A DNA stretch of 64,000 bases from a virus, in IMG/VR virus record IMGVR_UViG_3300025121_000002, positions 1-64,000 of that record, one strand, 5' to 3'. Under the pieces are notes generated by a model that made no database searches, had not been told where the DNA came from, and saw only the letters and a list, made by a program, of their open reading frames with translations. The translations under genes and the position numbers were made by a program. Of this stretch, positions 1-25,890 are shown piece by piece. Position 1 is the stretch's first letter. Every line of letters starts with the position of its first letter.

Positions 1-1
1 C

Positions 2-475
2 AATCAGACCGATGAGATTTGTTTAGCTGTTGTTAAACAAAACGGTAGAGCTTTGGAATATGTTAAACATCAGACAGAAGAAATATGTTTAGCTGCTGTT
101 AAAGAGAATGGTATGGCTTTACAATTTGTTAAACATCAAACAGAAGAAATATGTTTAGCTGCTGTTAAGCAAAATGGTTATGCTTTACTATATGTTAAGC
201 ATCAAACTGATGAATTATGTTTAGCTGCTGTCAATCAAAATGGTTATGCTTTGAAATATGTTGAATATCAAACACCAGAATTATGCTTAGTTGCTGTTAC
301 TAATTATGGTAATGCTTTGAAATATGTTAAGCATCAAACTGACGAATTATGCTTAGTTGCGATTAAAAAATATGAATGGTGTTTGTGTTATGTTAAACCA
401 GAGATTAAAACTAAAGATTTTTTATTACGATGTTTAGAAATTAATATAGCTTGTATAAAATATATGGAGATATAG
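2..475 (+). CDS. DUF4116-like tandem-repeat protein, paralog 1 (5' end outside window)
   Basis: Frame is open from the window edge and in frame with ORF 53..475. About 22-aa (66-nt) units ..QT[EDP]E[IL]CLAAV.QNGYAL.YVKH... Shared tail VKPEIKT..FLLRCLE.NIACIKYMEI. nt 1-162 equal 1440-1601 except one base. Confidence 0.8.
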   Translation, partial: NQTDEICLAVVKQNGRALEYVKHQTEEICLAAVKENGMALQFVKHQTEEICLAAVKQNGYALLYVKHQTDELCLAAVNQNGYALKYVEYQTPELCLVAVTNYGNALKYVKHQTDELCLVAIKKYEWCLCYVKPEIKTKDFLLRCLEINIACIKYMEI

Positions 476-477
476 AA

Positions 478-762
478 ATGAATAATATAATAGATTTTCC
501 TAAAATAAAACAATTACAAGAGGAACTAAATAAATTACTAGAAAGCAATCCAGAAAGAAGGGAATATCAAGAGTGGTTAAATAAACAACTAGATAAATAT
601 GGTGATGGTTCTACTCCAGAAAGTAGACATAATAGAATGTTATTTTTTAATGAATTACTAAAGGATAAAATAAGATCTTTAAACAAAGCTTTGTTAGATT
701 GTAAAGTAGATTTAGAAAAGATTAAGACTAAAATAAAGGATATAGAAAATGATAGTAAATAA
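478..762 (+). CDS. hypothetical protein (K/E-rich, coiled-coil-like)
   Basis: ATG 478 with GGAG about 8 nt upstream, right after the paralog-1 stop. The longer 451 start in the ORF track is a TTG inside the upstream gene. Confidence 0.55.
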   Translation: MNNIIDFPKIKQLQEELNKLLESNPERREYQEWLNKQLDKYGDGSTPESRHNRMLFFNELLKDKIRSLNKALLDCKVDLEKIKTKIKDIENDSK

Positions 763-1015
763 AAGGTATCACAGTCCTTTGTTATATAAAGTAAATAAAC
801 GAAACAACTATCAAGTCTGGTGTGCTATAGTTGAAGATAATATATTAAAGATTATGTCATACGAACAATCGTATAATAGATTTAATAAACGTAACTATAT
901 AAAAGAATATGATAACAAAGAAACTGCTATTAATGATTTGAATAAACGTTATGAAGAAAAAAGAAAGAAAGGATTCAGAAATTGGAACGAAATAAACAAA
1001 GATATATCAACTTAG
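749..1015 (+). CDS. hypothetical protein (weak WGR-like pattern ...A...L..RYEEKRKKGF)
   Basis: Co-oriented ORF overlapping the previous stop. Product guess rests on a loose motif only. Confidence 0.45.
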   Translation: MIVNKRYHSPLLYKVNKRNNYQVWCAIVEDNILKIMSYEQSYNRFNKRNYIKEYDNKETAINDLNKRYEEKRKKGFRNWNEINKDIST

Positions 1016-1254
1016 GTTGGTTTATATTACAAAGTAAATATTGTTATTACTTAGAAGTTAAGTTTAAACATTTAAATGATACAGAATATGATAAAATAGA
1101 GGATGAATATAAACAGTTAGCTAAAGATCTAGGGTTACCAATAAGTGCTTGTGATATGGTCGGTTTTGATTTAAATAGGGCAAGTTGTAGATTGGTTAAA
1201 GATAAACTAGAGCAAACAAAGAGTGTTGACTTTGGTTTATTAAATGAAGTATAA
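982..1254 (+). CDS. hypothetical protein
   Basis: TTG-start ORF overlapping the upstream gene by 34 nt, with no in-frame ATG near the 5' end. Start uncertain. Confidence 0.35.
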   Translation: MERNKQRYINLGWFILQSKYCYYLEVKFKHLNDTEYDKIEDEYKQLAKDLGLPISACDMVGFDLNRASCRLVKDKLEQTKSVDFGLLNEV

Positions 1255-1307
1255 TTACTAAATATCACTTCTTGAACGAAGTGAAAGATAATTAGGTATA
1301 GTATGAT

Positions 1308-1336
1308 TTGGATTATATTTATTTGTTCAATATTAT
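1308..1336 (+). promoter_or_regulatory. sigma70-like promoter candidate (TTGGAT-N17-TATTAT)
   Basis: -35/-10-like hexamers with a 17-nt spacer, about 39 nt upstream of the ATG at 1375. Confidence 0.4.
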
Positions 1337-1374
1337 TTTTTATGTGGTTAATAGGATAAAAAAATGAGGCGTAT

Positions 1375-1914
1375 ATGACACAATATGAAAACGACTTAGC
1401 TTGGATTAAAGACAATGGTTGTAATTTACGTTATATTTACAATCAGACCGATGAGATTTGTTTAGCTGTTGTTAAACAAAACGGTAGAGCTTTGGAATAT
1501 GTTAAACATCAGACAGAAGAAATATGTTTAGCTGCTGTTAAAGAGAATGGTACGGCTTTACAATTTGTTAAACATCAAACAGAAGAAATATGTTTAGCTG
1601 CGGTTATAGAGAATGGTTATGCTATATGTTGGGTTAAACATCAAACAGAAGAATTGTGTTTAATTGCTGTTAAAAAATATAGTGATGTTTTGCGTTTTGT
1701 TAAACATCAAACAGAAGAAATTTGTTTAGCTGCTGTTAAACAAGACGGTTATGCTTTGGAATATGTTAAACATCAAACTGATGAAATATGTTTAGCTGCT
1801 GTTAATCAATATGGTAATGCTTTGAAATATGTTAAACCAGAGATTAAAACGGAAGAATTTTTATTACGATGTTTAGAAACTAATATAGCTTGTATAAAAT
1901 ATATGGAGATATAG
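1375..1914 (+). CDS. DUF4116-like tandem-repeat protein, paralog 2 (about 7 repeats)
   Basis: Conserved N-terminus MTQYE.DLA..K.NG, 22-aa repeats, conserved C-terminal tail. 1698-1914 identical by eye to 3768-3984. Confidence 0.85.
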   Translation: MTQYENDLAWIKDNGCNLRYIYNQTDEICLAVVKQNGRALEYVKHQTEEICLAAVKENGTALQFVKHQTEEICLAAVIENGYAICWVKHQTEELCLIAVKKYSDVLRFVKHQTEEICLAAVKQDGYALEYVKHQTDEICLAAVNQYGNALKYVKPEIKTEEFLLRCLETNIACIKYMEI

Positions 1915-1916
1915 AA

Positions 1917-2966
1917 ATGAAGATATCTTGGAGTAGAATAGAGAAGTATTTAACTTGTCCTAAATACTATTATTACTATTACATTTGTGGTTATAGAGAC
2001 ACAACAATTAGTTCAGCTTTATTCTTTGGTACTAGTTTGGGTACAACTTGGCAACAAATACTTTTAACTAAAAAAGAACAGCTAACAGAAGAAGAAAAAA
2101 AGATAATCAACATTAATCCGTATATCTTTTTTGATAATTTATATAAAACAGTTAAGATAAATGATAACATTTACGATTTAGAAGATTGTATGTATGCTCG
2201 GTATTTTAAAAGTGATTTTGATAGTGATATACTAAATACTGAGGATAATGAACGAATAACAACATATAAACAAAAGAATAACATAGAAGAAAGTTTATCT
2301 TTTGATATATTGTATCCTAAATATGAAACTTATTCAACTAATGAAAAAGAAACAAAGTTTATTAACTTCCTATTTTGGGTGTCAACAAGACGTAAAGCTT
2401 ATATGTTAATCGATATTTATATAAAAGAAGTATTACCTTTGGTTCATAAAGTACATAGAATTGAAGGTAAAATATCTATAGAAAATACTAATGGTGATGT
2501 TCTTGAAGGATTTCTAGACGTTGATGCAGACTTTGAATATCCTAAAGATAATGTACAAAGAGTAATATTAGACCATAAAACTAGTAGTGTTAAATATAGT
2601 TCTAATGCTATTTTAACAAAGCAACAGCTTGCTTTATATAGCTATTCTGAAGGAATTGAGACACAAGGGTATATAATTGGATTAAAAAAGATAAAGAAAC
2701 CTAAAATTGGTACAAATAAAGGTAAATTACAAGCAGAAATACAAATATTAGTTGATAAAATATCAGAAGAAAGACAAGAAGAAGTTATAAAAGAAGCAGA
2801 TTCTGTCTTACAAAAGATAAAGAAACAAGAGTTTGAAAAGGATTATAGTAAAGGTTGTTTAGTATTTGGTAAATCTTGTTGTTATAAACCTTTATGTCAT
2901 AAAGGATGTAATCCTGATTATTTGTATATAAAAAAAGGTGAGAATATAAGCAAAAAATGGGAGTAA
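1917..2966 (+). CDS. PD-(D/E)XK nuclease, Cas4/RecB-like, with Cys cluster
   Basis: ATG 1917 after GGAG. N-terminal Cys (LTCPKYYY), acidic motif FLDVDAD, D-x-K motif ILDHKTS, QLALYSY (QxxxY), C-terminal Cys cluster GCLVFGKSCCYKPLCHKGC. Confidence 0.6.
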   Translation: MKISWSRIEKYLTCPKYYYYYYICGYRDTTISSALFFGTSLGTTWQQILLTKKEQLTEEEKKIININPYIFFDNLYKTVKINDNIYDLEDCMYARYFKSDFDSDILNTEDNERITTYKQKNNIEESLSFDILYPKYETYSTNEKETKFINFLFWVSTRRKAYMLIDIYIKEVLPLVHKVHRIEGKISIENTNGDVLEGFLDVDADFEYPKDNVQRVILDHKTSSVKYSSNAILTKQQLALYSYSEGIETQGYIIGLKKIKKPKIGTNKGKLQAEIQILVDKISEERQEEVIKEADSVLQKIKKQEFEKDYSKGCLVFGKSCCYKPLCHKGCNPDYLYIKKGENISKKWE

Positions 2967-3003
2967 TTACCGAATGTAAATGGTGTATTATTACCGAATG
3001 TAA
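2966..3003 (+). repeat. 14-bp direct repeat ATTACCGAATGTAA x2 (2966-2979, 2990-3003)
   Basis: Exact duplicate 24 bp apart in the intergenic region upstream of paralog 3. Confidence 0.7.
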
Positions 3004-3048
3004 TGAATTATCGTGAATGATTAGAATTAAATATGGTGAGGTATATGT

Positions 3049-3984
3049 ATGACACAATATGAAAAAGATTTAGCTGCTGTTAAAGAAAATGGTAGAGCTT
3101 TGAAATATATTGAACATCAAACACCAGAATTATGTTTAACTGCTGTTAATCAAAATGGTTATGCTTTGAAATATGTTGAATATCAAACAGAAGAAATATG
3201 TTTAGCCGCTGTTAAGGAAAATAGTTATGCTTTGAAATATGTTAAACATCAGACTCCAGAACTTTGTATGATTGCTGTTAAAGAAGACGGTCTTACTTTA
3301 TGTTTTGTTAAACAACAAACAGAAGAAATATGTTTAGCTGCTGTTAAACAGAATGGTTATGCTTTGGACTATGTTAAACATCAGACAGAAGAAATATACT
3401 TAGCCGCTGTTAAGCAAAATGGTTATGCTTTACAATTGGTTAAACAACAAACTGATGAAATATGTTTAGCTGCTGTTAATCAATATGGTTATGCTTTACA
3501 ATTGGTTAAACAACAAACTGATGAAATATGTTTAGCTGCTGTTAAACAAAATGGTTATGCTTTGAAATATGTTAAACATCAGACTCCAGAACTTTGTATG
3601 ATTGCTGTTAAAGAAGACGGTCTTACTTTATGTTTTGTTAAACAACAAACAGAAGAAATATATTTAGCTGCTGTTAAAGAGAATGGTATGGCTTTACAAT
3701 TTGTTAAACATCAAACAGAAGAAATATGTTTAGCTGCTGTTAAACAAGACGGTTATGCTTTGAAATATGTTAAACATCAAACAGAAGAAATTTGTTTAGC
3801 TGCTGTTAAACAAGACGGTTATGCTTTGGAATATGTTAAACATCAAACTGATGAAATATGTTTAGCTGCTGTTAATCAATATGGTAATGCTTTGAAATAT
3901 GTTAAACCAGAGATTAAAACGGAAGAATTTTTATTACGATGTTTAGAAACTAATATAGCTTGTATAAAATATATGGAGATATAG
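3049..3984 (+). CDS. DUF4116-like tandem-repeat protein, paralog 3 (about 13 repeats)
   Basis: Same N-terminus, repeat unit and tail as the other paralogs. Internal identical block of about 107 bp at 3224-3331 and 3554-3661 (offset 330 = 5 x 66 nt). Confidence 0.85.
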   Translation: MTQYEKDLAAVKENGRALKYIEHQTPELCLTAVNQNGYALKYVEYQTEEICLAAVKENSYALKYVKHQTPELCMIAVKEDGLTLCFVKQQTEEICLAAVKQNGYALDYVKHQTEEIYLAAVKQNGYALQLVKQQTDEICLAAVNQYGYALQLVKQQTDEICLAAVKQNGYALKYVKHQTPELCMIAVKEDGLTLCFVKQQTEEIYLAAVKENGMALQFVKHQTEEICLAAVKQDGYALKYVKHQTEEICLAAVKQDGYALEYVKHQTDEICLAAVNQYGNALKYVKPEIKTEEFLLRCLETNIACIKYMEI

Positions 3985-3985
3985 T

Positions 3986-4303
3986 ATGCGTTATATTATA
4001 GTTTTTATTATATTTATAATACTAATATCATTAGATACATCACAATCTAATTTAAAAAATCAATCTTGTTATCTAGGTTATGTTGTTAAACTAGAAAAAC
4101 AAGAAAAGAAGTATATACTAAATATAAAACTTAATAACGAAATCCAAGTATTAACCATTAATGAAAATAGTGATGTAAAATTCATTGATTTATTACAAAA
4201 TGTTACAGGTAAAAATGTTTTAATTGGTATAAAATATATGTATACTAATAATGAATATAGTGATAAACTTGAAAATGTTAAAATAATAAGGAGCAAGATA
4301 TGA
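3986..4303 (+). CDS. hypothetical protein with N-terminal signal/TM segment
   Basis: ATG 2 nt after the upstream stop. Hydrophobic N-terminus YIIVFIIFIILISL. Confidence 0.55.
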   Translation: MRYIIVFIIFIILISLDTSQSNLKNQSCYLGYVVKLEKQEKKYILNIKLNNEIQVLTINENSDVKFIDLLQNVTGKNVLIGIKYMYTNNEYSDKLENVKIIRSKI

Positions 4304-4866
4304 GAAACTTTCCATTAGAAAAGGATAAAATAGATAAAAACCAAATATGGACTATTAGTTCAAATGGAACACCAATGTATGTTTGTATTGGTAATGTTGA
4401 TTCGTTTAATCTTTTATATAACTTACCTCAAAATCTTTTAGATGAACTACTAGAATATGGTTGGTGTAATCAATATAATAGATTTCATTTTGAAACGTAT
4501 AACTTTAAATTAAATGATACAATAAAAGATACTAATACAAATACCCAATATGAAATATCCGATGTTACTATGAACATATGTAATAATATATTTGTTGCTA
4601 AATTATGGGATATAGACAATTTTAAGAGTATAGAAATGTCTTTAGGTGATTTAGAATATAATATAAGTAGTCAAGAATATGAAATTATAGAAAAGGAAGA
4701 AGATTTAGTATCTAAAGAAATTGATGATTTTTTTTCTGGTGTTGATGAAAAAAAGGAATTACCTTGTTCTATATATAATAAAGATTGTGAGATAGTAACT
4801 TCATATATGCCTGTATCTGGTAAATCCTTTAAAATGTGTAGAACCCATAAGAAGGAGGTATTTTAA
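4300..4866 (+). CDS. hypothetical protein
   Basis: ATGA overlap with the upstream gene, GGAG upstream, co-oriented array. Confidence 0.55.
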   Translation: MRNFPLEKDKIDKNQIWTISSNGTPMYVCIGNVDSFNLLYNLPQNLLDELLEYGWCNQYNRFHFETYNFKLNDTIKDTNTNTQYEISDVTMNICNNIFVAKLWDIDNFKSIEMSLGDLEYNISSQEYEIIEKEEDLVSKEIDDFFSGVDEKKELPCSIYNKDCEIVTSYMPVSGKSFKMCRTHKKEVF

Positions 4867-5189
4867 TGGAAAAATTTAAAATTGGTGATAAATTTAAATA
4901 TAGAGATGATATATATTTCCAAATTATAAACATAGGTGTGTATGATAATGGTGATCCTAGATATAAACTTGAATGTTATGAACGTCAGTTAATATCGATA
5001 GACCATTGTGGTGATGAATGTTTATTGGTGTGTAAAAAAATTGTTAACTTTCCTTGGGAAAATGAGACTTGTAAAGAAATTAAAAATGAATGTGAACATC
5101 TTTGGTTTGAAACTATATCACCATTTTCGGGTATAAAATGGAAAGATTGTAGTAAATGTGGTATGAAGTGGGAAGATTATCAAAAATAA
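4866..5189 (+). CDS. hypothetical Cys-rich protein (zinc-ribbon-like C-terminus)
   Basis: TAATG overlap, GGAGG RBS. C..C pairs (CEHLW...CSKCG). Confidence 0.55.
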   Translation: MEKFKIGDKFKYRDDIYFQIINIGVYDNGDPRYKLECYERQLISIDHCGDECLLVCKKIVNFPWENETCKEIKNECEHLWFETISPFSGIKWKDCSKCGMKWEDYQK

Positions 5190-5205
5190 TATATGAGGGT
5201 ATAAT

Positions 5206-5541
5206 ATGTATTTCTTAAAATTAGTAATGTCTTTTCTTTCATTTATTATATTATGTGTTATAATTACGAGTGTTTATATTTATCTTGAAGAAAGTAAAAA
5301 AACTAATTTATGTAAAATACTTGAAAAAGAATTTAATATAATATACAATGTATATGAATATAATAATATGTTTTGTAAACAAACAATATGTATAAGTCCA
5401 TATCTTTATAGAAAAGATTATTTTAATAATTTACAAGAGATAACTTTATCAGATACAACATTAGAATGTACCAAAAATATTTATGAAAAATTAAGAATTC
5501 AAAAAGAATATGAAAGTTATAAAATGGAGGTAAAACAATGA
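5206..5541 (+). CDS. hypothetical membrane protein
   Basis: N-terminal TM FLSFIILCVIITSVYIYL, GAGGG RBS. Confidence 0.5.
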   Translation: MYFLKLVMSFLSFIILCVIITSVYIYLEESKKTNLCKILEKEFNIIYNVYEYNNMFCKQTICISPYLYRKDYFNNLQEITLSDTTLECTKNIYEKLRIQKEYESYKMEVKQ

Positions 5542-5975
5542 AAATTTTCGAACTAGCTAAAGAATTAGGTTTAAAAGGTCATGAGTTACTTAACTTGATC
5601 AAAGAAAACGACTATGGTTATACAGCAATTACACAGACTTTAGATGTTGATGATGAAAATAAGTTTAGAAATGAATTTAAAGATGTTAAAAAAGAAGTAA
5701 CAATTGAAGAAATAAAAGAAGAAGTAGATCCTGAGATAAAAGAACATGATAAAATTGAGATGGTTGGTATTTATTATGATTATAAAAGAAAGAAATATAT
5801 ACCAATAACAATGATTATATTACCAGAACAGTTTGAAACATTAAACGTTGTTAAAAATGGAGAATATAATACCATTTACAATGCTAAAAGTAAAATGGGA
5901 GAACTATCAACAAAGGCTAAGTTTTTTAATCCTAGTACATTAGAAAGACTTATAGATAAAAGGAGATTAAAATGA
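5538..5975 (+). CDS. hypothetical protein
   Basis: ATGA overlap, GGAGG RBS. N-terminus MKIFELAKELGLKGHELL resembles a small helix-turn-helix-like module. Confidence 0.55.
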   Translation: MKIFELAKELGLKGHELLNLIKENDYGYTAITQTLDVDDENKFRNEFKDVKKEVTIEEIKEEVDPEIKEHDKIEMVGIYYDYKRKKYIPITMIILPEQFETLNVVKNGEYNTIYNAKSKMGELSTKAKFFNPSTLERLIDKRRLK

Positions 5976-6307
5976 TATTATTAAAAGAAGTATTTGATAA
6001 ATTACCAGAAAAGGTGAGGAAGTTAATAACTGAAGAAAATGAAAAATATTGGGTAAATAGAAAAGGTAATATAAATCCATATATTACTAATATGGGATAT
6101 TATCATGAATATCTTGGTTATAATGTATATTATGAGTTTTGTAAAAATATTGAAACATTAGAAGATGTTAAATTAATAACTCAAATTGATATACCTAAAT
6201 TATTAAAATTAGAAAAAGAGAATGAAGAACTATACAAATTAAAAAAAGAATATGATAATCTAAAGAAAAGTATAGAAGTTATAAAAGATCAATTTAATAA
6301 AGGATAA
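5972..6307 (+). CDS. hypothetical protein
   Basis: ATGA overlap with the upstream gene, co-oriented. Confidence 0.55.
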   Translation: MILLKEVFDKLPEKVRKLITEENEKYWVNRKGNINPYITNMGYYHEYLGYNVYYEFCKNIETLEDVKLITQIDIPKLLKLEKENEELYKLKKEYDNLKKSIEVIKDQFNKG

Positions 6308-6402
6308 TTGAAATGATTAAGGAAATATTCACATACGTTTGGGTTAGTATATTTGTTATTTCGTTGATAATATTAATGTTAAATCTTAACTAAGGAGTAT
6401 AA

Positions 6403-6981
6403 ATGACAGAAAAAGAAATTTATGAAAAACTATCATCACCTTTTCCATCAGAAGCTTTTCAGGTAGATTCTAGTAGAGGATTTGATTTATCTAGTTTAAA
6501 AGCTCAGTATATAGTTGAGCGTCTTAACGAAGTGCTTGGTATTGGTGGTTGGGATTTAGTTGGTGCTTATGAAAGAATTAAAGATGATATAATCTTTCAA
6601 GGTAAATTGTTCATAAGAATTGATGATAAAACTTATGAACATGATGGGGTTGGACATTGTGGACCTAAGAAAAACGTTGGTGATCAATATAAATCTGCTA
6701 AAACTGATTGTCTTAGTAAAACAGCAAGTTGGTTTGGTGTTGGTAATGAATGTTTTAAAGGTTTAGTTGATCCTAAAACGATTAAGAAAGGAAATAATGT
6801 AACAAATTACACTCAAACAACAAAACCGAGTGTAAATAATTACAAAACAGAAGAAAAAAAGGAGGAAAAACAAGAAGAAATACCAACTTTCAGCAAGAAA
6901 AAGAAACAAATGGAAGAAAAAACAGTAGAAACTGTTAAAAATGAAGAAAATACAGCAGTAAAAAGTACAAGTAAATGGTGA
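6403..6981 (+). CDS. Rad52/Sak-type single-strand annealing protein
   Basis: N-terminal pattern L.SPFP.E......G..LS.LKAQYIVERLNEVLGIGGWD typical of phage Rad52-family SSAPs. K/E-rich tail. AAGGAG RBS. Confidence 0.6.
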   Translation: MTEKEIYEKLSSPFPSEAFQVDSSRGFDLSSLKAQYIVERLNEVLGIGGWDLVGAYERIKDDIIFQGKLFIRIDDKTYEHDGVGHCGPKKNVGDQYKSAKTDCLSKTASWFGVGNECFKGLVDPKTIKKGNNVTNYTQTTKPSVNNYKTEEKKEEKQEEIPTFSKKKKQMEEKTVETVKNEENTAVKSTSKW

Positions 6982-7139
6982 TAATATATGTTTAAACAAA
7001 TCTTAATTGATGATATTTTATATTTAATTAATAGTAATGATGAATTAGTAACATATTGGGGTATTAATGGTGTTGGTCAAATACATATAGATCGAATATT
7101 TCCAATTTTAATTATAAATTTATTAACTAAGGAGAATTT

Positions 7140-7436
7140 ATGGCTAGATATTTAAATGTTGGTTCTATTACTAGAAGAAAAGGTAAAGAAGGCGGTGAAG
7201 TGTTACAATTTGAGTTAGACAATGTATCGTTATCTGAATTTATTGATTTGATAAAGGAACACGGTAAACGTTATTTAGGTGATATGAATAAAGAAGATAT
7301 TAAAGCTGGACAAGAGTTGAAATGGGATGATCCTAAGAGAATACCAAGATTAACTTTTGGCGTCTTTGAACCAAAGACGACTAACGAAAATGTTCGTAAA
7401 TTCGTAATGTTTAATATTTCGAAAAAAGTTGACTAA
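7140..7436 (+). CDS. hypothetical small basic protein
   Basis: AAGGAG RBS, followed by a strong intrinsic terminator (likely highly expressed). Confidence 0.55.
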   Translation: MARYLNVGSITRRKGKEGGEVLQFELDNVSLSEFIDLIKEHGKRYLGDMNKEDIKAGQELKWDDPKRIPRLTFGVFEPKTTNENVRKFVMFNISKKVD

Positions 7437-7457
7437 ATAGGGTATCATATGTTATAA

Positions 7458-7495
7458 ATAGGGTAGTGAAGAAATATCATTACCCTATTTTTTTG
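7458..7495 (+). terminator. rho-independent terminator
   Basis: 12-bp stem ATAGGGTAGTGA / TCATTACCCTAT (one G.U), 7-nt loop, then a T7 run. Confidence 0.8.
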
Positions 7496-7513
7496 TAACC
7501 AATGAGGTTTTAA

Positions 7514-9547
7514 ATGGAAAAATTGTATTATAGATTGTGTAAAGGTATGAATTCGAAAGGTAAACTCTATGCTATAGAAGACAATATGTATAACCATATT
7601 GATGATTATGAAAAGGATTGGTACTTTTCAACATATTTATATACCGAAGAACAAAGAAGAGAAATAGAAACTGAAATAGAAGAAGTTGATAAACAAGGTA
7701 ACAAATATACAACAATTAGGGGTGTATCTGGTATTACTGATGTTAAAACAAATAAGATGTGTTTTGACTTCGATAGTCATGATAACCTCGAATTAGCTCG
7801 TAAAGACACTTTAAAGCTAGTTGACAAACTTATTGGTGAAGGTATACCTAAGAAGGATATACAGCTCTGTTATAGCGGTTCTAAAGGCTTTGGTGTCATT
7901 ATAGAGACAGACACATACTTTACTCCAGAAGAGATTAAACGCACAGCATCATTCTTGACTACGGATTCTGAAACTTTTGATAGTAAAATGTATAACGCTA
8001 GTAGGATTTTTAGATGTCCACTAACGAAACATCCAGTAAGTGGGTTGTATAAGTATCCTTTAACTTATACCGAATTGAAAGATAAACATGCTAATGAAAT
8101 AAAGGAATTAGCTAAAAGTAATGATATAGATCCTTTAGATTACCAAGACTATTTTGATGTTGTACAATTACCAGAAAAGATAGTACATTTAAAGAATATT
8201 AAACCTAAAGTTAGTGTTAGTGAAGTTGATAGATTAGAAATGGTAACGAAACTAGATGATATTAACTTTTCAGAAAGACCTAGTTTTTTAACACCAGCAA
8301 AATATATGTTACATTTAGGTCACTTTCAAGAAGGTCAAAGAAGTCATTCAGCTATGATACTATGTTCAACATATAAAAAAGCTGGATTTAGTAAAACAGA
8401 TTCTTATAGATTGCTTAAAAGTGTAATGGAGAGACAATCAGAAATTAATAACGTTGATAGATTTCCAGATGAAGAATTGTGGAATAACGTAGTTTCTGTT
8501 GTATATGGTAGTAACTGGAACGGTGGTACTTATAATAGTGATACTAGTGATTTGTTAGTTAAAACTAATTTATTACTTCCTGAATATTTAAGAGATACTA
8601 ATAAAGGTAGTGGATTGGTTGACAATGATTATATTTTTGGTCAATTTAAAAAATTCATGGATGAGATTGATAAAAATACACTAAGATTTGGTATTAAAGA
8701 TTTAGATAATAAGGTTAAATTACTAACAGGTACAACAGTTGGTGTTTTGGGTATACCATCATCAGGTAAAACCGCTTTAGGTATGAGTTTGTTGGCTAAT
8801 AATTCTAAAGTTGGTGAACAATCTATATTTTATAGCTTAGATATGTCAATAAACATTATAGCTTATAGACAAGTTCAAGCTATAACTGGTTGGGATGATG
8901 ATATGATTAAAAATACATATAAAACAAATCCTAAACTATTCTTTGATAAATACAACGAATCTAAAGAAACTTTATTTAAAAACGTTACTTATTGTTTTAG
9001 ACATGGAACAACACCAGCGGATATTCGCTCTGATATAGTTAATTATGAACAAAATACAGGAAAGAAGGTGAGGTTGGTGTTAATTGATTATCTTGAAAAT
9101 GTTCAAAGTGGTTATACAGACCCAACTATAGGTTCTGGAGTTGTTGCACAAAGTTTATCAAATATTGCAGCAGAACTAAACGTTTTGATTGTTATATTAC
9201 TTCAAACACAAAAAAATATACAACCAACAGAAGAAATAACATCAATGCGAAGCATTAAAGGGGCTTCAATAATTGAACAATCTCTTAGTGTTGCGATAGG
9301 TATAAGTCGTTTAGGACACTCATCAACTTATTCAGACTATGATACTAGTATGCAAGTTAATGTTATTAAGAATAGATTTGGTTCTCAATCTAGAGTTGAT
9401 GTTGGGTGGTCTGGTAATTATGCTAAAATTAGAGATCTTACACAAGAAGATAGGAAGAATATTTCTGAAATTATTAGATTGAAGAAAGAAGATGCTGAAG
9501 AAAGAGAAGAAGAAAGAAGACAAAATAGAGGAAACGGTTGGGGTTAA
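7514..9547 (+). CDS. bifunctional primase (AEP-like) / DnaB-RecA-type helicase
   Basis: N-terminal half: CFDFDS, SGSKGFG and RIFRCPLTKH motifs. C-terminal half: Walker A GIPSSGKT and Walker B LVLIDYLE. Confidence 0.7.
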   Translation: MEKLYYRLCKGMNSKGKLYAIEDNMYNHIDDYEKDWYFSTYLYTEEQRREIETEIEEVDKQGNKYTTIRGVSGITDVKTNKMCFDFDSHDNLELARKDTLKLVDKLIGEGIPKKDIQLCYSGSKGFGVIIETDTYFTPEEIKRTASFLTTDSETFDSKMYNASRIFRCPLTKHPVSGLYKYPLTYTELKDKHANEIKELAKSNDIDPLDYQDYFDVVQLPEKIVHLKNIKPKVSVSEVDRLEMVTKLDDINFSERPSFLTPAKYMLHLGHFQEGQRSHSAMILCSTYKKAGFSKTDSYRLLKSVMERQSEINNVDRFPDEELWNNVVSVVYGSNWNGGTYNSDTSDLLVKTNLLLPEYLRDTNKGSGLVDNDYIFGQFKKFMDEIDKNTLRFGIKDLDNKVKLLTGTTVGVLGIPSSGKTALGMSLLANNSKVGEQSIFYSLDMSINIIAYRQVQAITGWDDDMIKNTYKTNPKLFFDKYNESKETLFKNVTYCFRHGTTPADIRSDIVNYEQNTGKKVRLVLIDYLENVQSGYTDPTIGSGVVAQSLSNIAAELNVLIVILLQTQKNIQPTEEITSMRSIKGASIIEQSLSVAIGISRLGHSSTYSDYDTSMQVNVIKNRFGSQSRVDVGWSGNYAKIRDLTQEDRKNISEIIRLKKEDAEEREEERRQNRGNGWG

Positions 9548-9579
9548 AATATATAATTTTTTAAAAAAGGGATTAATTA

Positions 9580-10107
9580 ATGAAAAAATCATGTAAAATT
9601 GCTATAACATGGGATTGTAATCTAGATTGTTCTTATTGTTGTAATAAGTTAGATGCTGTACAAAATAAGTTTCAAAATTCAACTTTAGATGAAATACTTG
9701 TTCAAAATTATGAAAATATATCAATTACTGGTGGAGAAATAGGTATATGTCCAGAAAAACTTAACAATTATCTTGAGATTTTAGGAAAAACAAAATCGAA
9801 ATTATGGTTATATACTAACGGTAGATTAATGCCACAAATGTTAATTAGACCTGAAAGAATTAATGGTATTAATATTAGCTGTCATAATAGTATATCACAC
9901 AGTTTGTTATGTGTGAATCAATGGGAAAAATATAAGGATATAAATATTAGATTACATATACAAGATGAAAAATATGATGACTATCTTATTAGTATGCAAA
10001 AATTAATAGAGTTATATATTCCTAAACAAAATATTAAATTGTGGACGTTAGATAAATGTTTTGACAATATTGAAGAAGATTGGTATTATATATCAGGAGT
10101 TAATTAA
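9580..10107 (+). CDS. small radical SAM protein (NrdG/QueE-sized)
   Basis: CNLDCSYCC (CxxxCxxC) near the N-terminus, ITGGEIG SAM-binding-like motif. 175 aa. Confidence 0.6.
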   Translation: MKKSCKIAITWDCNLDCSYCCNKLDAVQNKFQNSTLDEILVQNYENISITGGEIGICPEKLNNYLEILGKTKSKLWLYTNGRLMPQMLIRPERINGINISCHNSISHSLLCVNQWEKYKDINIRLHIQDEKYDDYLISMQKLIELYIPKQNIKLWTLDKCFDNIEEDWYYISGVN

Positions 10108-10230
10108 AAATGATTTTACTTATATGTTTACTAATAATATTTTATGTAATTTTATTTATTGGGATTATATCTTATAAAGGTAAGAACTATATTAAAAAAA
10201 CAATAAAATAATCGAACGGAGGTGAGATAT

Positions 10231-10584
10231 ATGACGTTAAAAGAGTGTATAGAAAAAGGATTTAAGAAATTTACTAGACCTAATTATAAAAAATATAATG
10301 TATATTGTTTCTTTGATTCAGATAATGCATTACAATACATGGATAGAGATTGGGTAGGATTTGATACTAATTATATAGTATTTAAAGATGATTTAATTGC
10401 TGATGATTGGGAAAAATATAAAGTAAAAGTTAAAAAAGAAAGATACATTTATTTACATAAATATGATATGATGAAAGAATTTAGAGTGGATTATAGACTA
10501 TTTCTATCAATAGAAGATGCTGAAGAAATTAGAACATCCATGGCTGGAAAAATATTAAAAATAGAATGGGAAGAGGAGGAATAA
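10231..10584 (+). CDS. hypothetical protein
   Basis: ATG 10231 six nt after GGAGGTGA. The track's 10222 start is a GTG inside the RBS. Confidence 0.55.
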   Translation: MTLKECIEKGFKKFTRPNYKKYNVYCFFDSDNALQYMDRDWVGFDTNYIVFKDDLIADDWEKYKVKVKKERYIYLHKYDMMKEFRVDYRLFLSIEDAEEIRTSMAGKILKIEWEEEE

Positions 10585-10877
10585 TGAGCTATACTGAACA
10601 TTTAGCAAGACAATTAGTTGAAGAAGCTATGAAAACAGAACAATCGTTAATCTTAGAACAGTTAACTGATTTAGTTTCTAGAAATTTGTTAGTTATAGAA
10701 TCAACACAGCCAGTTATAATTCAAGATTGTTGTAGTAATAAATTAACAATACAAAAGAAAATAAAGTTGACTTTAAAAGATAAAGAATATATACTAAAAC
10801 TAGAAGAAGAGAATAAAGAATTAAGATCTATAATTAAAAACTTAACTATAAGTTTAACTAATTATAAAGATATTTAA
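10584..10877 (+). CDS. hypothetical protein (coiled-coil C-terminus)
   Basis: ATG 10584 after GAGGAGGA, TAATG overlap with the upstream stop. Confidence 0.55.
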   Translation: MSYTEHLARQLVEEAMKTEQSLILEQLTDLVSRNLLVIESTQPVIIQDCCSNKLTIQKKIKLTLKDKEYILKLEEENKELRSIIKNLTISLTNYKDI

Positions 10878-10891
10878 CAAAAGGAATCAAA

Positions 10892-11170
10892 ATGAATAGT
10901 AAACTACTTACACATTTTTTAAACAAAACAGTATTTGTAACATTTCAACATGGTTCTAAAGTATTTGGTGAAGAAGATTTTGCTATAGAAGGCATCATTG
11001 TTGATATAGACAATGAGTTTATCTATATTAAATCAACAACAGTTAACGATAGAATTGCAGCATTTAAGATAAGTTTAATTGAGAGTATACAGGATGCTGA
11101 AGGAACTGAAGATATTGAAGAAGATTATGATAAATTTGAAAGTAATAATGGTGGTAATATACTGAATTGA
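10892..11170 (+). CDS. hypothetical protein
   Basis: AAGGA RBS, co-oriented. Beta-rich N-terminus and acidic tail. Confidence 0.5.
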   Translation: MNSKLLTHFLNKTVFVTFQHGSKVFGEEDFAIEGIIVDIDNEFIYIKSTTVNDRIAAFKISLIESIQDAEGTEDIEEDYDKFESNNGGNILN

Positions 11171-11202
11171 GGTGTTATTGCTGAAAGAATTGAGGTATAT
11201 GT

Positions 11203-11676
11203 ATGACAGAATATGAAAAAGATTTAGCTATGGTTAAACGAGATAGTTATGCTTTGGAATACGTTAAACATCAAACTTATGAATTATGTTTAGCTGTGGT
11301 TATAGAGAATGGTTATGCTTTGAAATATGTTGAACATCAAACTCCCGAATTATGTTTAGCTGCTGTTAATCAATATGGTTATGCTTTACAATTTGTTAAG
11401 CATCAAACAGAAGAAATATGTTTAGCTGCTGTTAAACAAAATGGTTATGCTTTGAAATATGTTAAACATCAGACAGAAGAAATATATTTAGCTGCTGTTA
11501 AAGAGAATGGTATGGCTTTACAATTTGTTAAACATCAAACAGAAGAAATATGTTTAGCTGCTGTTAAGGAAAATAGTTATGCTTTACGTTTGGTTAAACC
11601 AGAGATTAAAACAGAAGAATTCTTATTACGTTGTTTAGAAAATAATATAGCTTGTATAAAATATATAGAAGTATAA
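11203..11676 (+). CDS. DUF4116-like tandem-repeat protein, paralog 4 (about 6 repeats)
   Basis: Same 5' leader (gaggtatatgtATGACA.AATATGAAAAAGA), repeats and tail (..NIACIKYIEV). Confidence 0.85.
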   Translation: MTEYEKDLAMVKRDSYALEYVKHQTYELCLAVVIENGYALKYVEHQTPELCLAAVNQYGYALQFVKHQTEEICLAAVKQNGYALKYVKHQTEEIYLAAVKENGMALQFVKHQTEEICLAAVKENSYALRLVKPEIKTEEFLLRCLENNIACIKYIEV

Positions 11677-11677
11677 T

Positions 11678-12136
11678 ATGAAAAATAAGAGAAAACTTAG
11701 ACTTCTTCTTAAATGGTTAGGTCCACTTAAACCTAGAATAGTATTCAAACCACTCAAAGGTATTTCTGGTTATATAAATGATACTTCAACTGTTATATAT
11801 GTTAATAATAAAAAAGAAAGTTCTTCTTGGATTCTAACAACAATAATACATGAGTATATACATTTTCTAGCTAGTTTATATAACATAAAAGGGTATAAGT
11901 TTGAAGGTAATTATATAGAAATTGCAAATCTAAATGATATGTTTAAAGTTGTAGATTTGATTAAATCTGATTTATTAATTGAAACACATACAGAATTATT
12001 AACTTTACTAATTTACATAGAATTTTGTAGACAACATGATATTGTTTGTGATAATATTAATTTTAGTAATTATTTAGATGCTAATGAAGATGATTTAATA
12101 GAGGATACATTTAAAAGAATTTATAAGGAAAAATAA
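11678..12136 (+). CDS. putative Zn-metallopeptidase-like protein (HExxH)
   Basis: TTIIHEYIHFLA = HExxH after a basic N-terminus. Layout resembles ImmA/IrrE or SprT-like proteins. Confidence 0.4.
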   Translation: MKNKRKLRLLLKWLGPLKPRIVFKPLKGISGYINDTSTVIYVNNKKESSSWILTTIIHEYIHFLASLYNIKGYKFEGNYIEIANLNDMFKVVDLIKSDLLIETHTELLTLLIYIEFCRQHDIVCDNINFSNYLDANEDDLIEDTFKRIYKEK

Positions 12137-18109: not shown

Positions 18110-18823
18110 ATGATAAAAAAATATAATTTTGAATTAGTTAACTGTGATACTGATAGTATCAGTATTTGTAATTACGATCAAAGTAAAATAACAAAAGAAA
18201 CCCAAATATTAATGTTAGAAGAAATTAATAAACTATTACCAGGAAAAGTTATATTAGATCACGATGGTTATTTTCCTAAATTCCTAGTTATTAGATCAAA
18301 AAACTATGTGATGGTTAAAGAAGATGGTAAAATAAAATACAAAGGCAGCTCAATTTTAGACAAAAAAAGAGAGCTAAGTACCCGAAATCTCATGAATGAA
18401 ATCATTTCTTCCATCTTAGAAAACGATATTAACTACGACTTAATCAATGCTATCTATGAAAAATACATAATAGAAGCCAACAACGTTACTGACATCAATC
18501 AATGGGCTGTTAAACGTACATACACCAAAGCAATCATGACTAGTGAAAGAACTAATGAATCTAAGGTGCGTGATGCTCTTAAAGATGAAACAATGTCTGA
18601 GGGTGACAGGTTCTATATTTATACAAGTAAAGGTAATACTGTGAAACTAACAAAACATTGGGTTAAAGGTGACGAAGATTGCGAAAAGCTAACAAAACGC
18701 GTGTTTGATACGTTAAACATTTTTAAAGAAATACTTGACATGTCTAAATTTACGAAGTATCATTTAAAGACTAAACGAAAAGAATTGGAGAAATTACTAA
18801 ATGAAAATGCAACAATTTTATAA
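18110..18823 (+). CDS. family B DNA polymerase, C-terminal fragment (motif C plus thumb)
   Basis: Own GGTGG RBS and ATG, in a different frame from the N-terminal fragment. Motif C VNCDTDSI near the N-terminus. Confidence 0.8.
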   Translation: MIKKYNFELVNCDTDSISICNYDQSKITKETQILMLEEINKLLPGKVILDHDGYFPKFLVIRSKNYVMVKEDGKIKYKGSSILDKKRELSTRNLMNEIISSILENDINYDLINAIYEKYIIEANNVTDINQWAVKRTYTKAIMTSERTNESKVRDALKDETMSEGDRFYIYTSKGNTVKLTKHWVKGDEDCEKLTKRVFDTLNIFKEILDMSKFTKYHLKTKRKELEKLLNENATIL

Positions 18824-25051: not shown

Positions 25052-25396
25052 ATGACACAATATGAAAAAGACTTAGCTGCTGTTAAACAAAATGGTTATG
25101 CTTTACAATATGTTAACCATCAAACAGAAGAATTGTGTTTAATTGCTGTTAAAGAATATGGTAATGTATTACAATATGTTAAACATCAAACACCAGAACT
25201 TTGTTTAGCTGCTGTTAAAGAGAATGGTTATGTTTTACAATATGTTAAACATCAAACAGAAGAAATATGTTTAGCCGCTGTTAAGGAAAATAGTTATGCT
25301 TTACGTTTGGTTAAACCAGAGATTAAAACAGAAGAATTCTTATTACGTTGTTTAGAAAATAATATAGCTTGTATAGAACATATGGAGATAAAATGA
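25052..25396 (+). CDS. DUF4116-like tandem-repeat protein, paralog 5 (about 4 repeats)
   Basis: Same N-terminus MTQYEKDLAAVKQNG, repeats and tail (..NIACIEHMEIK). Confidence 0.85.
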   Translation: MTQYEKDLAAVKQNGYALQYVNHQTEELCLIAVKEYGNVLQYVKHQTPELCLAAVKENGYVLQYVKHQTEEICLAAVKENSYALRLVKPEIKTEEFLLRCLENNIACIEHMEIK

Positions 25397-25890
25397 TCAT
25401 AACAATAGATTTATCTGTACATTCAACGGGATATACAGTTTTTGATGAAGAAGTCTTAATTGACTATGGAATAATAACACCAGAAAGATACCCAAAACAA
25501 TCAATAGATCGTTATCCTATTAAGTCTGTTAATCAAGTAAAGTCAACAGCTAAACAGGTACATACTCTAATTGAGTCATATTTGCCTCAAATTGAAGCTA
25601 TTGTAATAGAAGAGATAAATGGTGCTGGTAGAAGAAACATCATTGGTACAAAGGCATTGTGTGGCATTCACTACGTTTTAATGTCTTTGATGGATTTGGA
25701 AACATTAAAGAAGGTTGTTTTCATTAAATCATGTGAATGGAGAAAGGCTTTAAACCTTAAACGTAATGGTGATTGGAAACAATCTGCTGTTGATTTTATC
25801 AATGAAAAGCATGGTACTGAGTTTATTAGAGAAGAAAATGATTTGACAGATGCTTTGTGTTTGTACTACGCTTATCTAAAACTTAAGTAA
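25393..25890 (+). CDS. RuvC-like Holliday junction resolvase
   Basis: ATGA overlap start. MIITIDLSVHSTGY (Asp), VIEEINGAG (Glu), ENDLTDALCL (Asp) in RuvC order. Confidence 0.6.
   Translation: MIITIDLSVHSTGYTVFDEEVLIDYGIITPERYPKQSIDRYPIKSVNQVKSTAKQVHTLIESYLPQIEAIVIEEINGAGRRNIIGTKALCGIHYVLMSLMDLETLKKVVFIKSCEWRKALNLKRNGDWKQSAVDFINEKHGTEFIREENDLTDALCLYYAYLKLK

What the first reader, a model, noticed from the sequence alone, without database searches (positions are those of the whole stretch)
1..3984. Five-member family of DUF4116-like 22-aa repeat proteins with long identical DNA blocks
Five genes (2..475, 1375..1914, 3049..3984, 11203..11676, 25052..25396) share three features:
- a conserved leader and N-terminus (MTQYEKDLAAVK.NG)
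- a variable number (about 4 to 13) of 66-nt / 22-aa units ..QT[EDP]E[IL]CLAAV[KN][QE][ND]G[YM]AL[KQE][YF]VKH..
- a conserved tail VKPEIKTEEFLLRCLE.NIACIKYMEI whose last codons double as the RBS of the downstream gene

Paralogs share blocks that are identical by eye: 1-162 = 1440-1601 (one mismatch), 1698-1914 = 3768-3984, and inside paralog 3, 3224-3331 = 3554-3661 (offset 5 x 66 nt). Identity this high in a compact phage genome implies recent duplication, gene conversion or repeat-number change. It also creates direct repeats able to delete the intervening genes, including the Cas4-like nuclease. Variation concentrates at a few positions per unit, as expected for a solenoid binding surface. 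The function is unknown; a host-takeover or anti-defence binding/decoy role is only a hypothesis.
Basis: partly seen in the sequence, partly recalled or inferred. Interest (0 to 1): 0.75.

Follow-up and report, generated by a model that had tools for sequence, protein, structure and literature searches.

The report
Recombining DUF4116 repeat-protein genes in phage
An uncultured ~85-kb groundwater phage carries five copies of a small gene for a helical repeat protein of unknown function (Pfam DUF4116). The copies keep swapping blocks of sequence with each other, a real but fairly ordinary case of a virus expanding a repeat-protein family.

Summary
Five + strand genes are DUF4116/PF13475 proteins (E 1e-28 to 5e-72): 2..475 (really 179 aa, cut by the window start), 1375..1914, 3049..3984, 11203..11676 and 25052..25396.

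All three claimed identical blocks are exact or have one mismatch. There are more such blocks, and all 46 exact repeats of at least 30 nt in the window lie in these genes. Units differ on average at 14 of 66 nt, yet runs of 95-226 nt are identical between paralogs. Gene 2 is a chimera: its 5' end matches gene 1 and its 3' end matches gene 3. That indicates recent gene conversion or ectopic recombination.

AlphaFold gives a regular alpha-solenoid (pLDDT 93) with no counterpart in the PDB. Variation concentrates in helix B and at a few other unit positions. Related phages with the same replication-module synteny lack these genes, so they are accessory. The nearest viral relatives are DUF4116 proteins of giant viruses, some fused to F-box domains.

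Caveat: short-read assemblies of this phage repeatedly break inside these genes, so perfect identity and the 13-unit count of gene 3 need read-level confirmation. Function is untested; the best guess is diversifying protein-binding adaptors. Verdict: new member of a known, uncharacterised kind.

The parts
1..475 (+). Paralog 1 (p1), DUF4116 repeat protein. It is cut by the window start; the full gene is 179 aa and begins 64 nt upstream of the window. Layout: N-cap, 6 internal units, C-cap.
   Evidence: Pfam E 9.2e-32. Full length from source contig L002. Unit register.
1375..1914 (+). Paralog 2 (p2), 179 aa. It is a chimera: 1375-1601 equals the p1 5' end with 1 mismatch, and 1698-1914 equals the p3 3' end exactly. 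Only about 96 nt in the middle is private.
   Evidence: AlphaFold2 pLDDT 93.2, pTM 0.83.
3049..3984 (+). Paralog 3 (p3), 311 aa: N-cap, 12 internal units, C-cap. It contains an internal exact 108-nt duplication (3224-3331 = 3554-3661, offset 5 units) and a 61-nt repeat at offset 66.
   Evidence: Pfam E 4.5e-72. Exact repeats. AlphaFold2 pLDDT 83.4. The exact 311-aa product is present in 10 contigs of more than 50 kb.
11203..11676 (+). Paralog 4 (p4), 157 aa, 5 internal units. Its last unit and C-cap are identical to those of p5, and its middle units match p3 and p1.
   Evidence: The NCBI record LBPE01000005.1 has a 36-N gap at 11407-11468.
25052..25396 (+). Paralog 5 (p5), 114 aa, 3 internal units. 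Its stop overlaps the start of the RuvC-like resolvase gene (ATGA).
1698..1914 (+). 217-nt exact direct repeat, copy A. Copy B is 3768-3984. The two copies flank the PD-(D/E)XK nuclease gene.
   Evidence: 0 mismatches.
3768..3984 (+). 217-nt exact direct repeat, copy B. Several public contigs start at or inside it (3768, 3844, 3868, 3908).
1917..2966 (+). PD-(D/E)XK (Cas4-like) nuclease gene, lying between p2 and p3. It starts 2 nt after the p2 stop.
   Evidence: Pfam PDDEXK_1 E 5.8e-12. PHROG exonuclease. Conserved in related phages that lack flanking DUF4116 genes.
25393..25890 (+). RuvC-like Holliday junction resolvase gene, translationally coupled to p5.
   Evidence: PHROG 827/159. Junction sequence.
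6403..6981 (+). Possible Rad52-like single-strand annealing protein. With the nuclease, it is a candidate engine for recombination between the repeats.
   Evidence: Weak Pfam Rad52_Rad22 hit, E 8.7e-4, below the cut-off. Relatives carry ERF at the same place. This is inference only.

Best explanation
The five genes are paralogous accessory genes in the early/replication arm of an uncultured ~85-kb tailed phage.

What is shown, with high confidence:
- Each gene encodes a small (13-35 kDa), mildly acidic, cytoplasmic protein made only of DUF4116 repeats.
- The predicted fold is a regular alpha-solenoid. Each 22-aa unit has a loop (VKHQT), a 10-residue helix A ([EDP]E[IL]CLAAV[KN][QE]) and a 6-residue helix B (G[YM]AL[KQE][YF]).
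- The stack is closed by a truncated N-cap unit and a degenerate C-cap unit.
- The conserved residues are the hydrophobic core and the helix-capping QT.E motif. The variable residues sit mainly on helix B and the A-B turn.
- The paralogs exchange sequence by homologous recombination or gene conversion in register with the 66-nt unit. This produces mosaic genes and changes in unit number.

What is inferred:
- The exchange is probably driven by the phage's own recombination genes: the PD-(D/E)XK nuclease, a Rad52-like annealing protein and the RuvC-like resolvase.
- Each copy behaves as a self-contained cassette. It runs from its own RBS to its stop codon, sits directly upstream of an unrelated gene, and supplies a GGAG inside its last codons for that gene.

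Likely function (inferred, low to moderate confidence): the proteins are protein-binding adaptors or decoys made early in infection that engage host proteins, for takeover or counter-defence. Shuffling of units among paralogs would diversify their binding surfaces.
For: Family membership: Pfam DUF4116 at 98-238 bits.

Fold: AlphaFold2 solenoid with pLDDT 93.2 and 83.4. An independent trRosetta alpha-solenoid model exists for the family (PMC8078820).

Anatomy: cap/unit/cap layout.

Pattern of variation: entropy peaks at unit positions 18 and 21. pN exceeds pS at positions 6, 11, 17-19, 21 and 22. pN is far below pS at positions 4, 5, 7, 9 and 20. Overall pS is 0.30, so the units are old and selected at the protein level.

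Mosaic structure:
- p1[N,2,3] = p2[N,2,3]
- p2[6,7,C] = p3[12,13,C]
- p3.4 = p3.9
- p4[6,C] = p5[4,C]
- These runs show 0-1 differences against a mean of 14 per 66 nt. Permutation tests gave 0 of 20,000.
- The p1/p2 identity starts exactly at the ATG although the leaders differ.

Accessory status: phages whose primase-helicase is 39-52% identical share the synteny (PD-(D/E)XK nuclease, primase-helicase, DNA polymerase, ClpP) but have no DUF4116 gene within +/-10 kb.

Hint of a protein-binding role: family members are fused to F-box domains (P0042; Marseillevirus LCMAC201 proteins) and to a protein kinase (Sylvanvirus). DUF4116 proteins are also present in many copies in giant viruses and in some phages: Slicky01 has 3 genes, and Atu_ph07 has at least 3 proteins.

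Robustness: independent assemblies are 100% identical to the window wherever they overlap.
Against: There is no functional evidence for any DUF4116 protein. Only four papers in the library mention the family, and none addresses function. PADLOC and NCBIfam gave nothing above threshold.

The proteins have no solved structural relative. Foldseek against the PDB gave E of 0.02 or worse and TM of 0.33 or lower, so 'protein-binding' rests on analogy with other alpha-solenoids and on domain fusions in distant homologues.

The per-position pN/pS values come from 28 non-independent short units and are crude.

All public assemblies appear to be one population, with zero SNPs. Diversification between populations is therefore not shown, and copy and unit numbers looked invariant where they could be read (10 contigs carry the same p3).

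Perfect block identity could be inflated if assemblers traversed one collapsed repeat node twice.
Confidence: 0.55

Rival explanations
1. Assembly artefact, in part. The genes are real, but short-read assemblers collapsed or mis-threaded near-identical repeats. On this reading the perfect identity of the blocks, the chimeric make-up of p2 and/or the 13-unit length of p3 are products of assembly, not biology.
For: Public contigs of this phage start or end exactly inside the repeats, at window 3224, 3768, 3844, 3868, 3908 and 11448. LBPE01000005.1 has a 36-N gap inside p4. DATDSE010000095.1 begins with 141 nt of p3 units joined to p4 through shared exact blocks. The 85-kb records are labelled 'scaffold'.
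Against: Each of the five loci has unique flanks on both sides. Ten contigs of more than 50 kb from different samples give the identical 311-aa p3. Records whose names follow three different naming styles (scaffold_, k141_, NODE_) agree 100% with the window up to their ends. The p1/p2 block carries an internal SNP that splits it into 113- and 112-nt exact stretches, which 150-nt reads could resolve. The gene order around p2 and p3 matches the synteny of relatives.
Confidence: 0.15
2. Nucleic-acid-binding solenoids. The repeats read DNA or RNA, as in TALE, PUF, PPR or HEAT-like DNA-glycosylase repeats. They would act with the adjacent recombination or replication genes, or on host nucleic acids.
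For: Three of the five copies sit next to DNA-processing genes: the PD-(D/E)XK nuclease follows p2 and precedes p3, and the RuvC-like resolvase follows p5. They have a modular one-unit architecture with 2-3 hypervariable positions per unit.
Against: The proteins are acidic, with pI 5.3-5.8 and D+E exceeding K+R, which is unlike known DNA- or RNA-binding solenoids. There is no fold match to TALE, PUF or PPR. The other two copies precede unrelated small genes. Fusions within the family are to F-box and kinase domains.
Confidence: 0.1
3. Selectively near-neutral or selfish cassettes. The repeat gene spreads within the genome by recombination because it is repetitive and carries its own RBS, with little benefit to the phage.
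For: Close relatives lack the genes entirely. Homology ends exactly at the cassette borders. The specific C-cap was not found in any other contig searched.
Against: All five ORFs are intact. Core and capping residues are strongly conserved with abundant synonymous change: pN is far below pS at positions 4, 5, 7, 9 and 20, and the non-variable positions give pN/pS of 0.30. That indicates purifying selection on the protein. Five copies take about 2.8 kb of an 85-kb genome.
Confidence: 0.12
4. The 66-nt repeats work at the DNA level, as iterons, recombination hot spots or packaging or regulatory sites, and the ORFs are incidental.
For: The repeats are strictly periodic and dispersed in the replication arm.
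Against: The reading frame is kept through 37 units. Variation follows codon and helix periodicity, and third positions vary freely at conserved residues. There is a strong protein-family match. The promoter/terminator scan showed no excess.
Confidence: 0.03

Closest known systems
Pfam DUF4116 (PF13475) repeat proteins, especially those of giant viruses (Klosneuvirus, Hokovirus, Marseillevirus LCMAC201, Mimivirus LCMiAC01, Bodo saltans virus)
   Same: They share the 22-aa repeat with the QT.E.C..AV..[ND]G.AL.YV consensus, at up to 56% identity, and the same predicted fold (Foldseek E as low as 1e-15). Several DUF4116 proteins occur per viral genome. Function is unknown.
   Different: The giant-virus and cellular proteins are usually longer and carry extra domains: F-box, kinase, or an N-terminal DUF7666. 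The phage proteins are repeat-only, with a private N-cap and C-cap not found elsewhere. Here the paralogs also show very recent sequence exchange.
DUF4116 genes of other phages (Pseudoalteromonas phage vB_PtuP_Slicky01, Agrobacterium phage Atu_ph07, Salicola phage SCTP-2, Bacillus phage AgentSmith)
   Same: These are small repeat proteins annotated as hypothetical. Slicky01 (65 kb) has three such genes clustered together.
   Different: There is no DNA similarity and a different genome backbone. Identity is at most 60% and only over the repeats. Long identical inter-paralog blocks were not examined in those phages.
Ankyrin-repeat (and ANK/F-box) multigene families of poxviruses and giant viruses
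   Same: By analogy (my own knowledge, not tested here): both are virus-encoded alpha-helical repeat adaptors. Both expand as lineage-specific paralog families, vary in repeat number, and are fused to F-box in some members.
   Different: The repeats are unrelated (33-aa ANK versus 22-aa DUF4116). The hosts are eukaryotic, with a known SCF ubiquitin-ligase logic that has no direct bacterial counterpart.
Armadillo/HEAT alpha-solenoids (importin-alpha, designed armadillo repeat proteins)
   Same: They share the general architecture of stacked helical hairpins. They are the top Foldseek hits, though not significant ones.
   Different: TM-scores are 0.15-0.33 and E is 0.02 or worse. The repeat here is 22 aa with two helices, against 42 aa with three helices in armadillo repeats. 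This is not a membership.
Concerted evolution or gene-conversion cassette systems (e.g. Neisseria pilS/pilE, Borrelia vls), as a mechanistic analogy only
   Same: Both show mosaic sequence exchange between dispersed paralogs that share conserved framework segments.
   Different: No expression-site versus silent-cassette organisation exists here: all five copies are complete genes with an RBS. No dedicated recombination signal was found, and no population variation was observed.

Membership tests
Pfam DUF4116 (PF13475) | Match to the family HMM above the curated gathering score (24.9 bits) | tested here: met
   The five proteins score 98.3-237.8 bits, E 1.8e-28 to 4.5e-72, with 4-10 matched stretches each.
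Pfam DUF4116 (PF13475) | Tandem repeat of about 22 residues with the conserved QT.E.C..AV...G.AL motif | tested here: met
   66-nt period arrays. Unit register and consensus. The same consensus appears in an alignment with 42 database homologues.
Pfam DUF4116 (PF13475) | Predicted alpha-solenoid fold, as in the trRosetta model of PMC8078820 | tested here: met
   AlphaFold2 gives two helices per unit with pLDDT 93.2 (p2) and 83.4 (p3). Foldseek matches predicted DUF4116 proteins in BFVD at E 1e-15 to 1e-8.
Armadillo/HEAT repeat superfamily | Significant structural superposition on solved ARM/HEAT proteins | tested here: not met
   Best PDB hits have E 0.019 (p3) and 0.10 (p2), with TM 0.33 or lower. 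A profile search of PDB sequences gave no hit at E of 1 or better.
Known anti-phage defence or counter-defence protein families (PADLOC-DB) | HMM match to a catalogued defence-system component | tested here: not met
   The only hit is a sub-threshold 23-bit match of p2 to candidate PDC-M52A. The other paralogs have no hit.
Diversity-generating retroelement target genes | A template repeat/variable repeat pair with adenine-specific differences, plus a nearby reverse transcriptase | not tested
   No systematic reverse-transcriptase search was run. All long repeats in the window are between the paralogs themselves, and no RVT domain appears in the Pfam lists for the parts of the genome that were annotated.
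Conserved core gene of this phage lineage | Presence at a syntenic position in related phages | tested here: not met
   tblastn of p3 against L007, L008 and L009 found nothing. These loci have a primase-helicase 39-52% identical to the window's and were searched over +/-10 kb.

The most novel reading that the evidence does not exclude
The five genes form a deliberate combinatorial system. A phage, possibly one infecting a candidate-phyla-radiation/Patescibacteria host, uses its own recombination enzymes to shuffle 22-aa binding modules among dispersed, fully expressed cassettes. This would continually generate new solenoid binding surfaces against host defence or receptor proteins. It would be a recombination-based counterpart of diversity-generating retroelements, built on a fold with no solved structure.
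Probability: 0.08. Interest if true: 0.75.

Novelty: new member of a known kind. Interest (0 to 1): 0.35.

Why it matters
DUF4116 is a very large family: 16,298 representatives of 50%-identity clusters match at E of 1e-3 or better. It has no known function and no solved structure.

This phage offers minimal, repeat-only members of 114-311 aa with well-defined caps and very confident models. They are convenient targets for structure determination and partner screening.

The mosaic pattern is a clean small-scale example of concerted evolution and unit shuffling in a phage accessory gene family.

It is also a practical warning. These genes are where short-read assemblies of this genome break or mis-join.

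The finding does not by itself change any concept.

Tried and rejected
- Megablast of window 1-12000 against GenBank phages found no match.
- Searches of IMG/VR with the nuclease and with the primase-helicase found no relatives.
- The C-cap ("tail") signature returned nothing in any collection searched: the exact 20-mer in IMG/VR, a degenerate pattern in JGI metagenome contigs, and a degenerate pattern in IMG/VR. The JGI collection apparently does not hold this phage either, so those two negatives are weak.
- A scan of GTDB genomes with p3 gave only two loci, in a Promethearchaeota MAG and a Desulfovibrio MAG. That is not informative about the host.
- Cluster look-ups gave no organism names for the top homologues. 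The five paralog sequences are not in the clustered collection at all, which also explains why one search returned no self-hit.
- The promoter/terminator scan showed no excess over shuffled sequence, so no claim is made about dedicated promoters. The ATTACCGAATGTAA x2 motif upstream of p3 is not significant by count.
- PADLOC, NCBIfam and PHROGs gave no functional label. The PHROG hits are all 'unknown function'.
- The MACPF_D3 hit on the p2 N-cap (30 bits) was judged to be repeat cross-talk and was not followed.
- My end-aligned p4/p5 permutation test was mis-registered, because p5 has one extra codon, and it is discarded. The p4/p5 block rests.
- An apparent strain variant (L015, 99.4% identity) turned out to be a chimeric contig end, not a variant.

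Full report
**What is there.** The window has a + strand arm of early, replication and recombination genes (1-25,900) and a - strand structural arm.

Five + strand ORFs match Pfam DUF4116 (PF13475) at 98-238 bits, against a gathering score of 24.9. They are at 2..475, 1375..1914, 3049..3984, 11203..11676 and 25052..25396. Tandem Repeats Finder finds period-66 arrays in exactly these five places. A tblastn search with paralog 3 finds no sixth copy in the window. It also finds none in the 2.5 kb upstream or the 8.3 kb downstream recovered from the source contigs. About 75 of the phage's roughly 85 kb has therefore been checked.

**Source.** The same genome occurs in many public assemblies:
- ENA ANAN16-1_SAMN03203004 scaffold_181, 85,054 bp
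- a second ENA scaffold of 85,326 bp
- JGI 3300025073, 85,023 bp
- a SPAdes-style contig (NODE_...) of 83,374 bp
- NCBI LBPE01000005.1 and DATDSE010000095.1, the latter deposited in a 'Patescibacteria group' MAG

All are 100% identical to the window where they overlap. From the ENA contig, paralog 1 is a complete 179-aa gene that begins 64 nt before the window.

There is no nucleotide match to any GenBank phage, and no relative was found in IMG/VR.

**Anatomy.** In a 22-codon register every protein is repeats from end to end:
- a 20-aa N-cap (MTQYEKDLAAVKENG.AL.Y), which is a unit lacking its first two residues
- 6, 6, 12, 5 and 3 internal units in p1 to p5
- a C-cap (VKPEIKTEEFLLRCLE.NIACIKYMEI), which is a degenerate unit: compare QTEEICLAAVKQNGYALKYV with KTEEFLLRCLETNIACIKYM

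AlphaFold2 models p2 at mean pLDDT 93.2, pTM 0.83, and p3 at 83.4, pTM 0.76. In both, each unit forms a 10-residue helix, a one-residue break, a 6-residue helix and a 5-residue loop, and the C-cap is modelled as a further helix pair. This agrees with the published trRosetta alpha-solenoid model for the family (PMC8078820).

No solved structure resembles the fold. A profile search of PDB sequences is empty at E of 1 or better. Foldseek against the PDB gives only non-significant armadillo/importin-alpha and designed-repeat hits, with E of 0.02 or worse and TM of 0.33 or lower.

The proteins are mildly acidic (pI 5.3-5.8) and have about one Cys per unit.

**Where the variation is.** Among the 32 internal units:
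- Q4, T5 and E7 are invariant.
- V1, C9, L10, A12, V13 and L20 are nearly invariant.
- Entropy peaks at positions 18 (2.1 bits) and 21 (2.4 bits) on helix B, followed by 6, 22, 15, 16 and 14.

A crude per-codon Nei-Gojobori count gives pN above pS at positions 6, 11, 17-19, 21 and 22. It gives pN far below pS at 4, 5, 7, 9 and 20. Overall pS is 0.30 and pN is 0.19. The same positions are the 'x' columns in the alignment with 42 database homologues.

**Recent exchange between paralogs.** The three claimed blocks are verified: 1 mismatch in 162 nt, 0 in 217 and 0 in 108. Further exact blocks of 99, 95, 82 and 62 nt link p4-p5, p3-p4, p1-p4 and p3-p4. All 46 exact repeats of at least 30 nt in the 64-kb window lie in these genes.

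Unit by unit, the mean difference is 14 of 66 nt, but these runs differ at 0-1 sites:
- p1[N,2,3] = p2[N,2,3]
- p2[6,7,C] = p3[12,13,C]
- p3.4 = p3.9
- p4[6,C] = p5[4,C]

Paralog 2 is thus a chimera of the p1 5' end (226 nt from the ATG, one non-synonymous mismatch) and the p3 3' end (217 nt). Longest-tract permutation tests give 0 of 20,000 for both pairs.

Identity starts exactly at the start codon and ends at the stop codon, or 7 nt after it for p1/p2. The flanks are unrelated. The short 5' leaders fall into two classes:
- p1 and p5: GTAAAGGAAAGWTAAAATG
- p2, p3 and p4: TGAGGYRTAT(GT)ATG

The pattern is what gene conversion or ectopic homologous recombination in register with the repeat would give. 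That the phage's own PD-(D/E)XK nuclease, Rad52-like protein and RuvC-like resolvase drive it is my inference.

**Cassette-like placement.** Each copy ends 1-2 nt before, or overlaps (ATGA in p5), the start of an unrelated gene:
- p1: a 94-aa ORF
- p2: the PD-(D/E)XK nuclease
- p3: a 105-aa ORF
- p4: a 152-aa ORF with an HExxH motif
- p5: the RuvC-like resolvase

Phages whose primase-helicase is 39-52% identical keep the same module order: PD-(D/E)XK nuclease, ERF or an equivalent, primase-helicase, DNA polymerase, ClpP. They have no DUF4116 gene in +/-10 kb. The genes are accessory insertions specific to this lineage.

The particular C-cap was not found in IMG/VR or in JGI metagenome contigs. 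The JGI negatives are weak, because this phage itself was not hit there. None of the 120 best database homologues ends with it; most of them carry an extra N-terminal domain.

**Assembly caveat.** The repeats are exactly where assemblies fail.
- Contigs start at window 3224 (the start of the internal 108-nt repeat), 3768 (the start of the 217-nt repeat), 3844, 3868 and 3908, and one ends at 11448.
- LBPE01000005.1 has 36 Ns inside p4.
- DATDSE010000095.1 opens with 141 nt of p3 joined to p4 through shared exact blocks.

Against a gross artefact: every locus has unique flanks, ten long contigs from different samples encode the identical 311-aa p3, and the p1/p2 block contains a SNP that makes it resolvable by 150-nt reads.

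What remains uncertain is whether 'zero mismatches' is partly due to a collapsed repeat node being used twice, and whether p3 truly has 13 N-cap-plus-internal units. All assemblies are the same sequence with no SNPs, so they say nothing about polymorphism between populations. No deletion variant was seen.

**What it is related to.** DUF4116 is very large: 16,298 representatives of 50%-identity clusters match at E of 1e-3 or better, and 1,515 hits at E of 1e-5 or better came from the word-indexed search. It is essentially unstudied: four papers in the library mention it, none on function.

The best structural and sequence relatives among viral proteins are DUF4116 proteins of giant viruses, several per genome. 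These include Marseillevirus LCMAC201, Klosneuvirus, Hokovirus, Mimivirus LCMiAC01 and Bodo saltans virus. Some are fused to F-box or protein-kinase domains. An F-box-DUF4116 protein and several DUF7666-DUF4116 proteins appear among the metagenomic homologues.

A few phages have such genes. Pseudoalteromonas phage Slicky01 has three clustered copies. In Bacillus phage AgentSmith the best match lies in a single annotated gene.

PADLOC, NCBIfam and PHROGs add no function.

**Most likely mechanism.** Shown: these are repeat-only alpha-solenoid proteins under protein-level selection, with a variable helix-B face, encoded by accessory genes that recombine with each other.

Inferred: they are protein-binding adaptors or decoys, made with the early/replication genes, that engage host factors, and unit shuffling diversifies their surfaces. 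This rests on the general behaviour of alpha-solenoids and on the F-box and kinase fusions in distant homologues. I give this functional reading about 35-40%, and the structural and evolutionary description about 85-90%.

Rivals:
- partial assembly artefact (0.15)
- near-neutral selfish cassette (0.12)
- nucleic-acid binding (0.10; disfavoured by the acidic pI)
- a DNA-level role (0.03; disfavoured by codon-periodic constraint)

**Verdict.** This is a new member, a minimal repeat-only subfamily, of a known uncharacterised family. It shows a textbook-style concerted-evolution pattern in a phage. Interest is moderate to low: useful as a handle on DUF4116 and as an assembly warning, but not surprising to a specialist.

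Noticed in passing
window 16305-18077 and 18110-18823 (+): The family-B DNA polymerase is split into two ORFs in different frames, each with its own start. The 590-aa part aligns to residues 69-546 of a relative's single 793-aa PolB, and the 237-aa part aligns to residues 557-781. Relatives have one ORF of 793-814 aa. The split is identical in every assembly that could be compared.
   Followed up: partly
window 53271-53936 (-): A LAGLIDADG_2 homing endonuclease gene (Pfam E 2e-28) sits among the structural genes. A relative's primase-helicase carries an intein-like Hom_end/LAGLIDADG insertion (P0125).
   Followed up: no
whole window; NCBI LBPE01000005.1, DATDSE010000095.1: This phage genome is deposited as contigs of MAG records, and NCBI labels its helicase 'Patescibacteria group bacterium'. 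That is either mis-binning or a hint at a candidate-phyla-radiation host. The host is otherwise unknown, and GC is only 0.23-0.35.
   Followed up: no
window 2966-2979 and 2990-3003 (+): An exact two-copy direct repeat, ATTACCGAATGTAA, lies in the 82-nt spacer between the nuclease gene and paralog 3. It is not significant by count (34 of 100 shuffles reach 2 matches), but it is well placed for an operator or promoter element.
   Followed up: partly
window 11678-12136 (+): The 152-aa ORF directly coupled to paralog 4 contains an HExxH motif (IIHEYIHF) and gives a weak, sub-threshold NCBIfam metalloprotease hit. Its function is unknown.
   Followed up: no
window 1226-1284 (+): The best sigma-70-like match in the first 12.5 kb (TTGACT-18-TATAAT, 11 of 12) lies upstream of paralog 2 and is followed by a hairpin at 1265-1284. 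A related CTTGAACGAAGT motif precedes paralog 1 in the source contig. The scan as a whole showed no excess over shuffles.
   Followed up: no
window 21168-21830 (+): An ORF with a weak AP2-domain hit (24 bits, below the cut-off). It may be an HNH/AP2-type homing endonuclease lying between the exonuclease and ClpP genes.
   Followed up: no
window 22259-22810 (+) and 28251-29003 (-): The first ORF is a clear ClpP-family protease (Pfam E 7e-24). The second looked ClpP/SppA-like by eye in its translation but was not run against any library.
   Followed up: no
L015 (DATDSE010000095.1) 1-141: This contig starts with p3 sequence (window 3339-3479), skips one unit and runs into p4 through shared exact blocks. 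That is either an assembler walk across repeats or reads from a real p3/p4 recombinant, which would lack the primase-helicase.
   Followed up: partly
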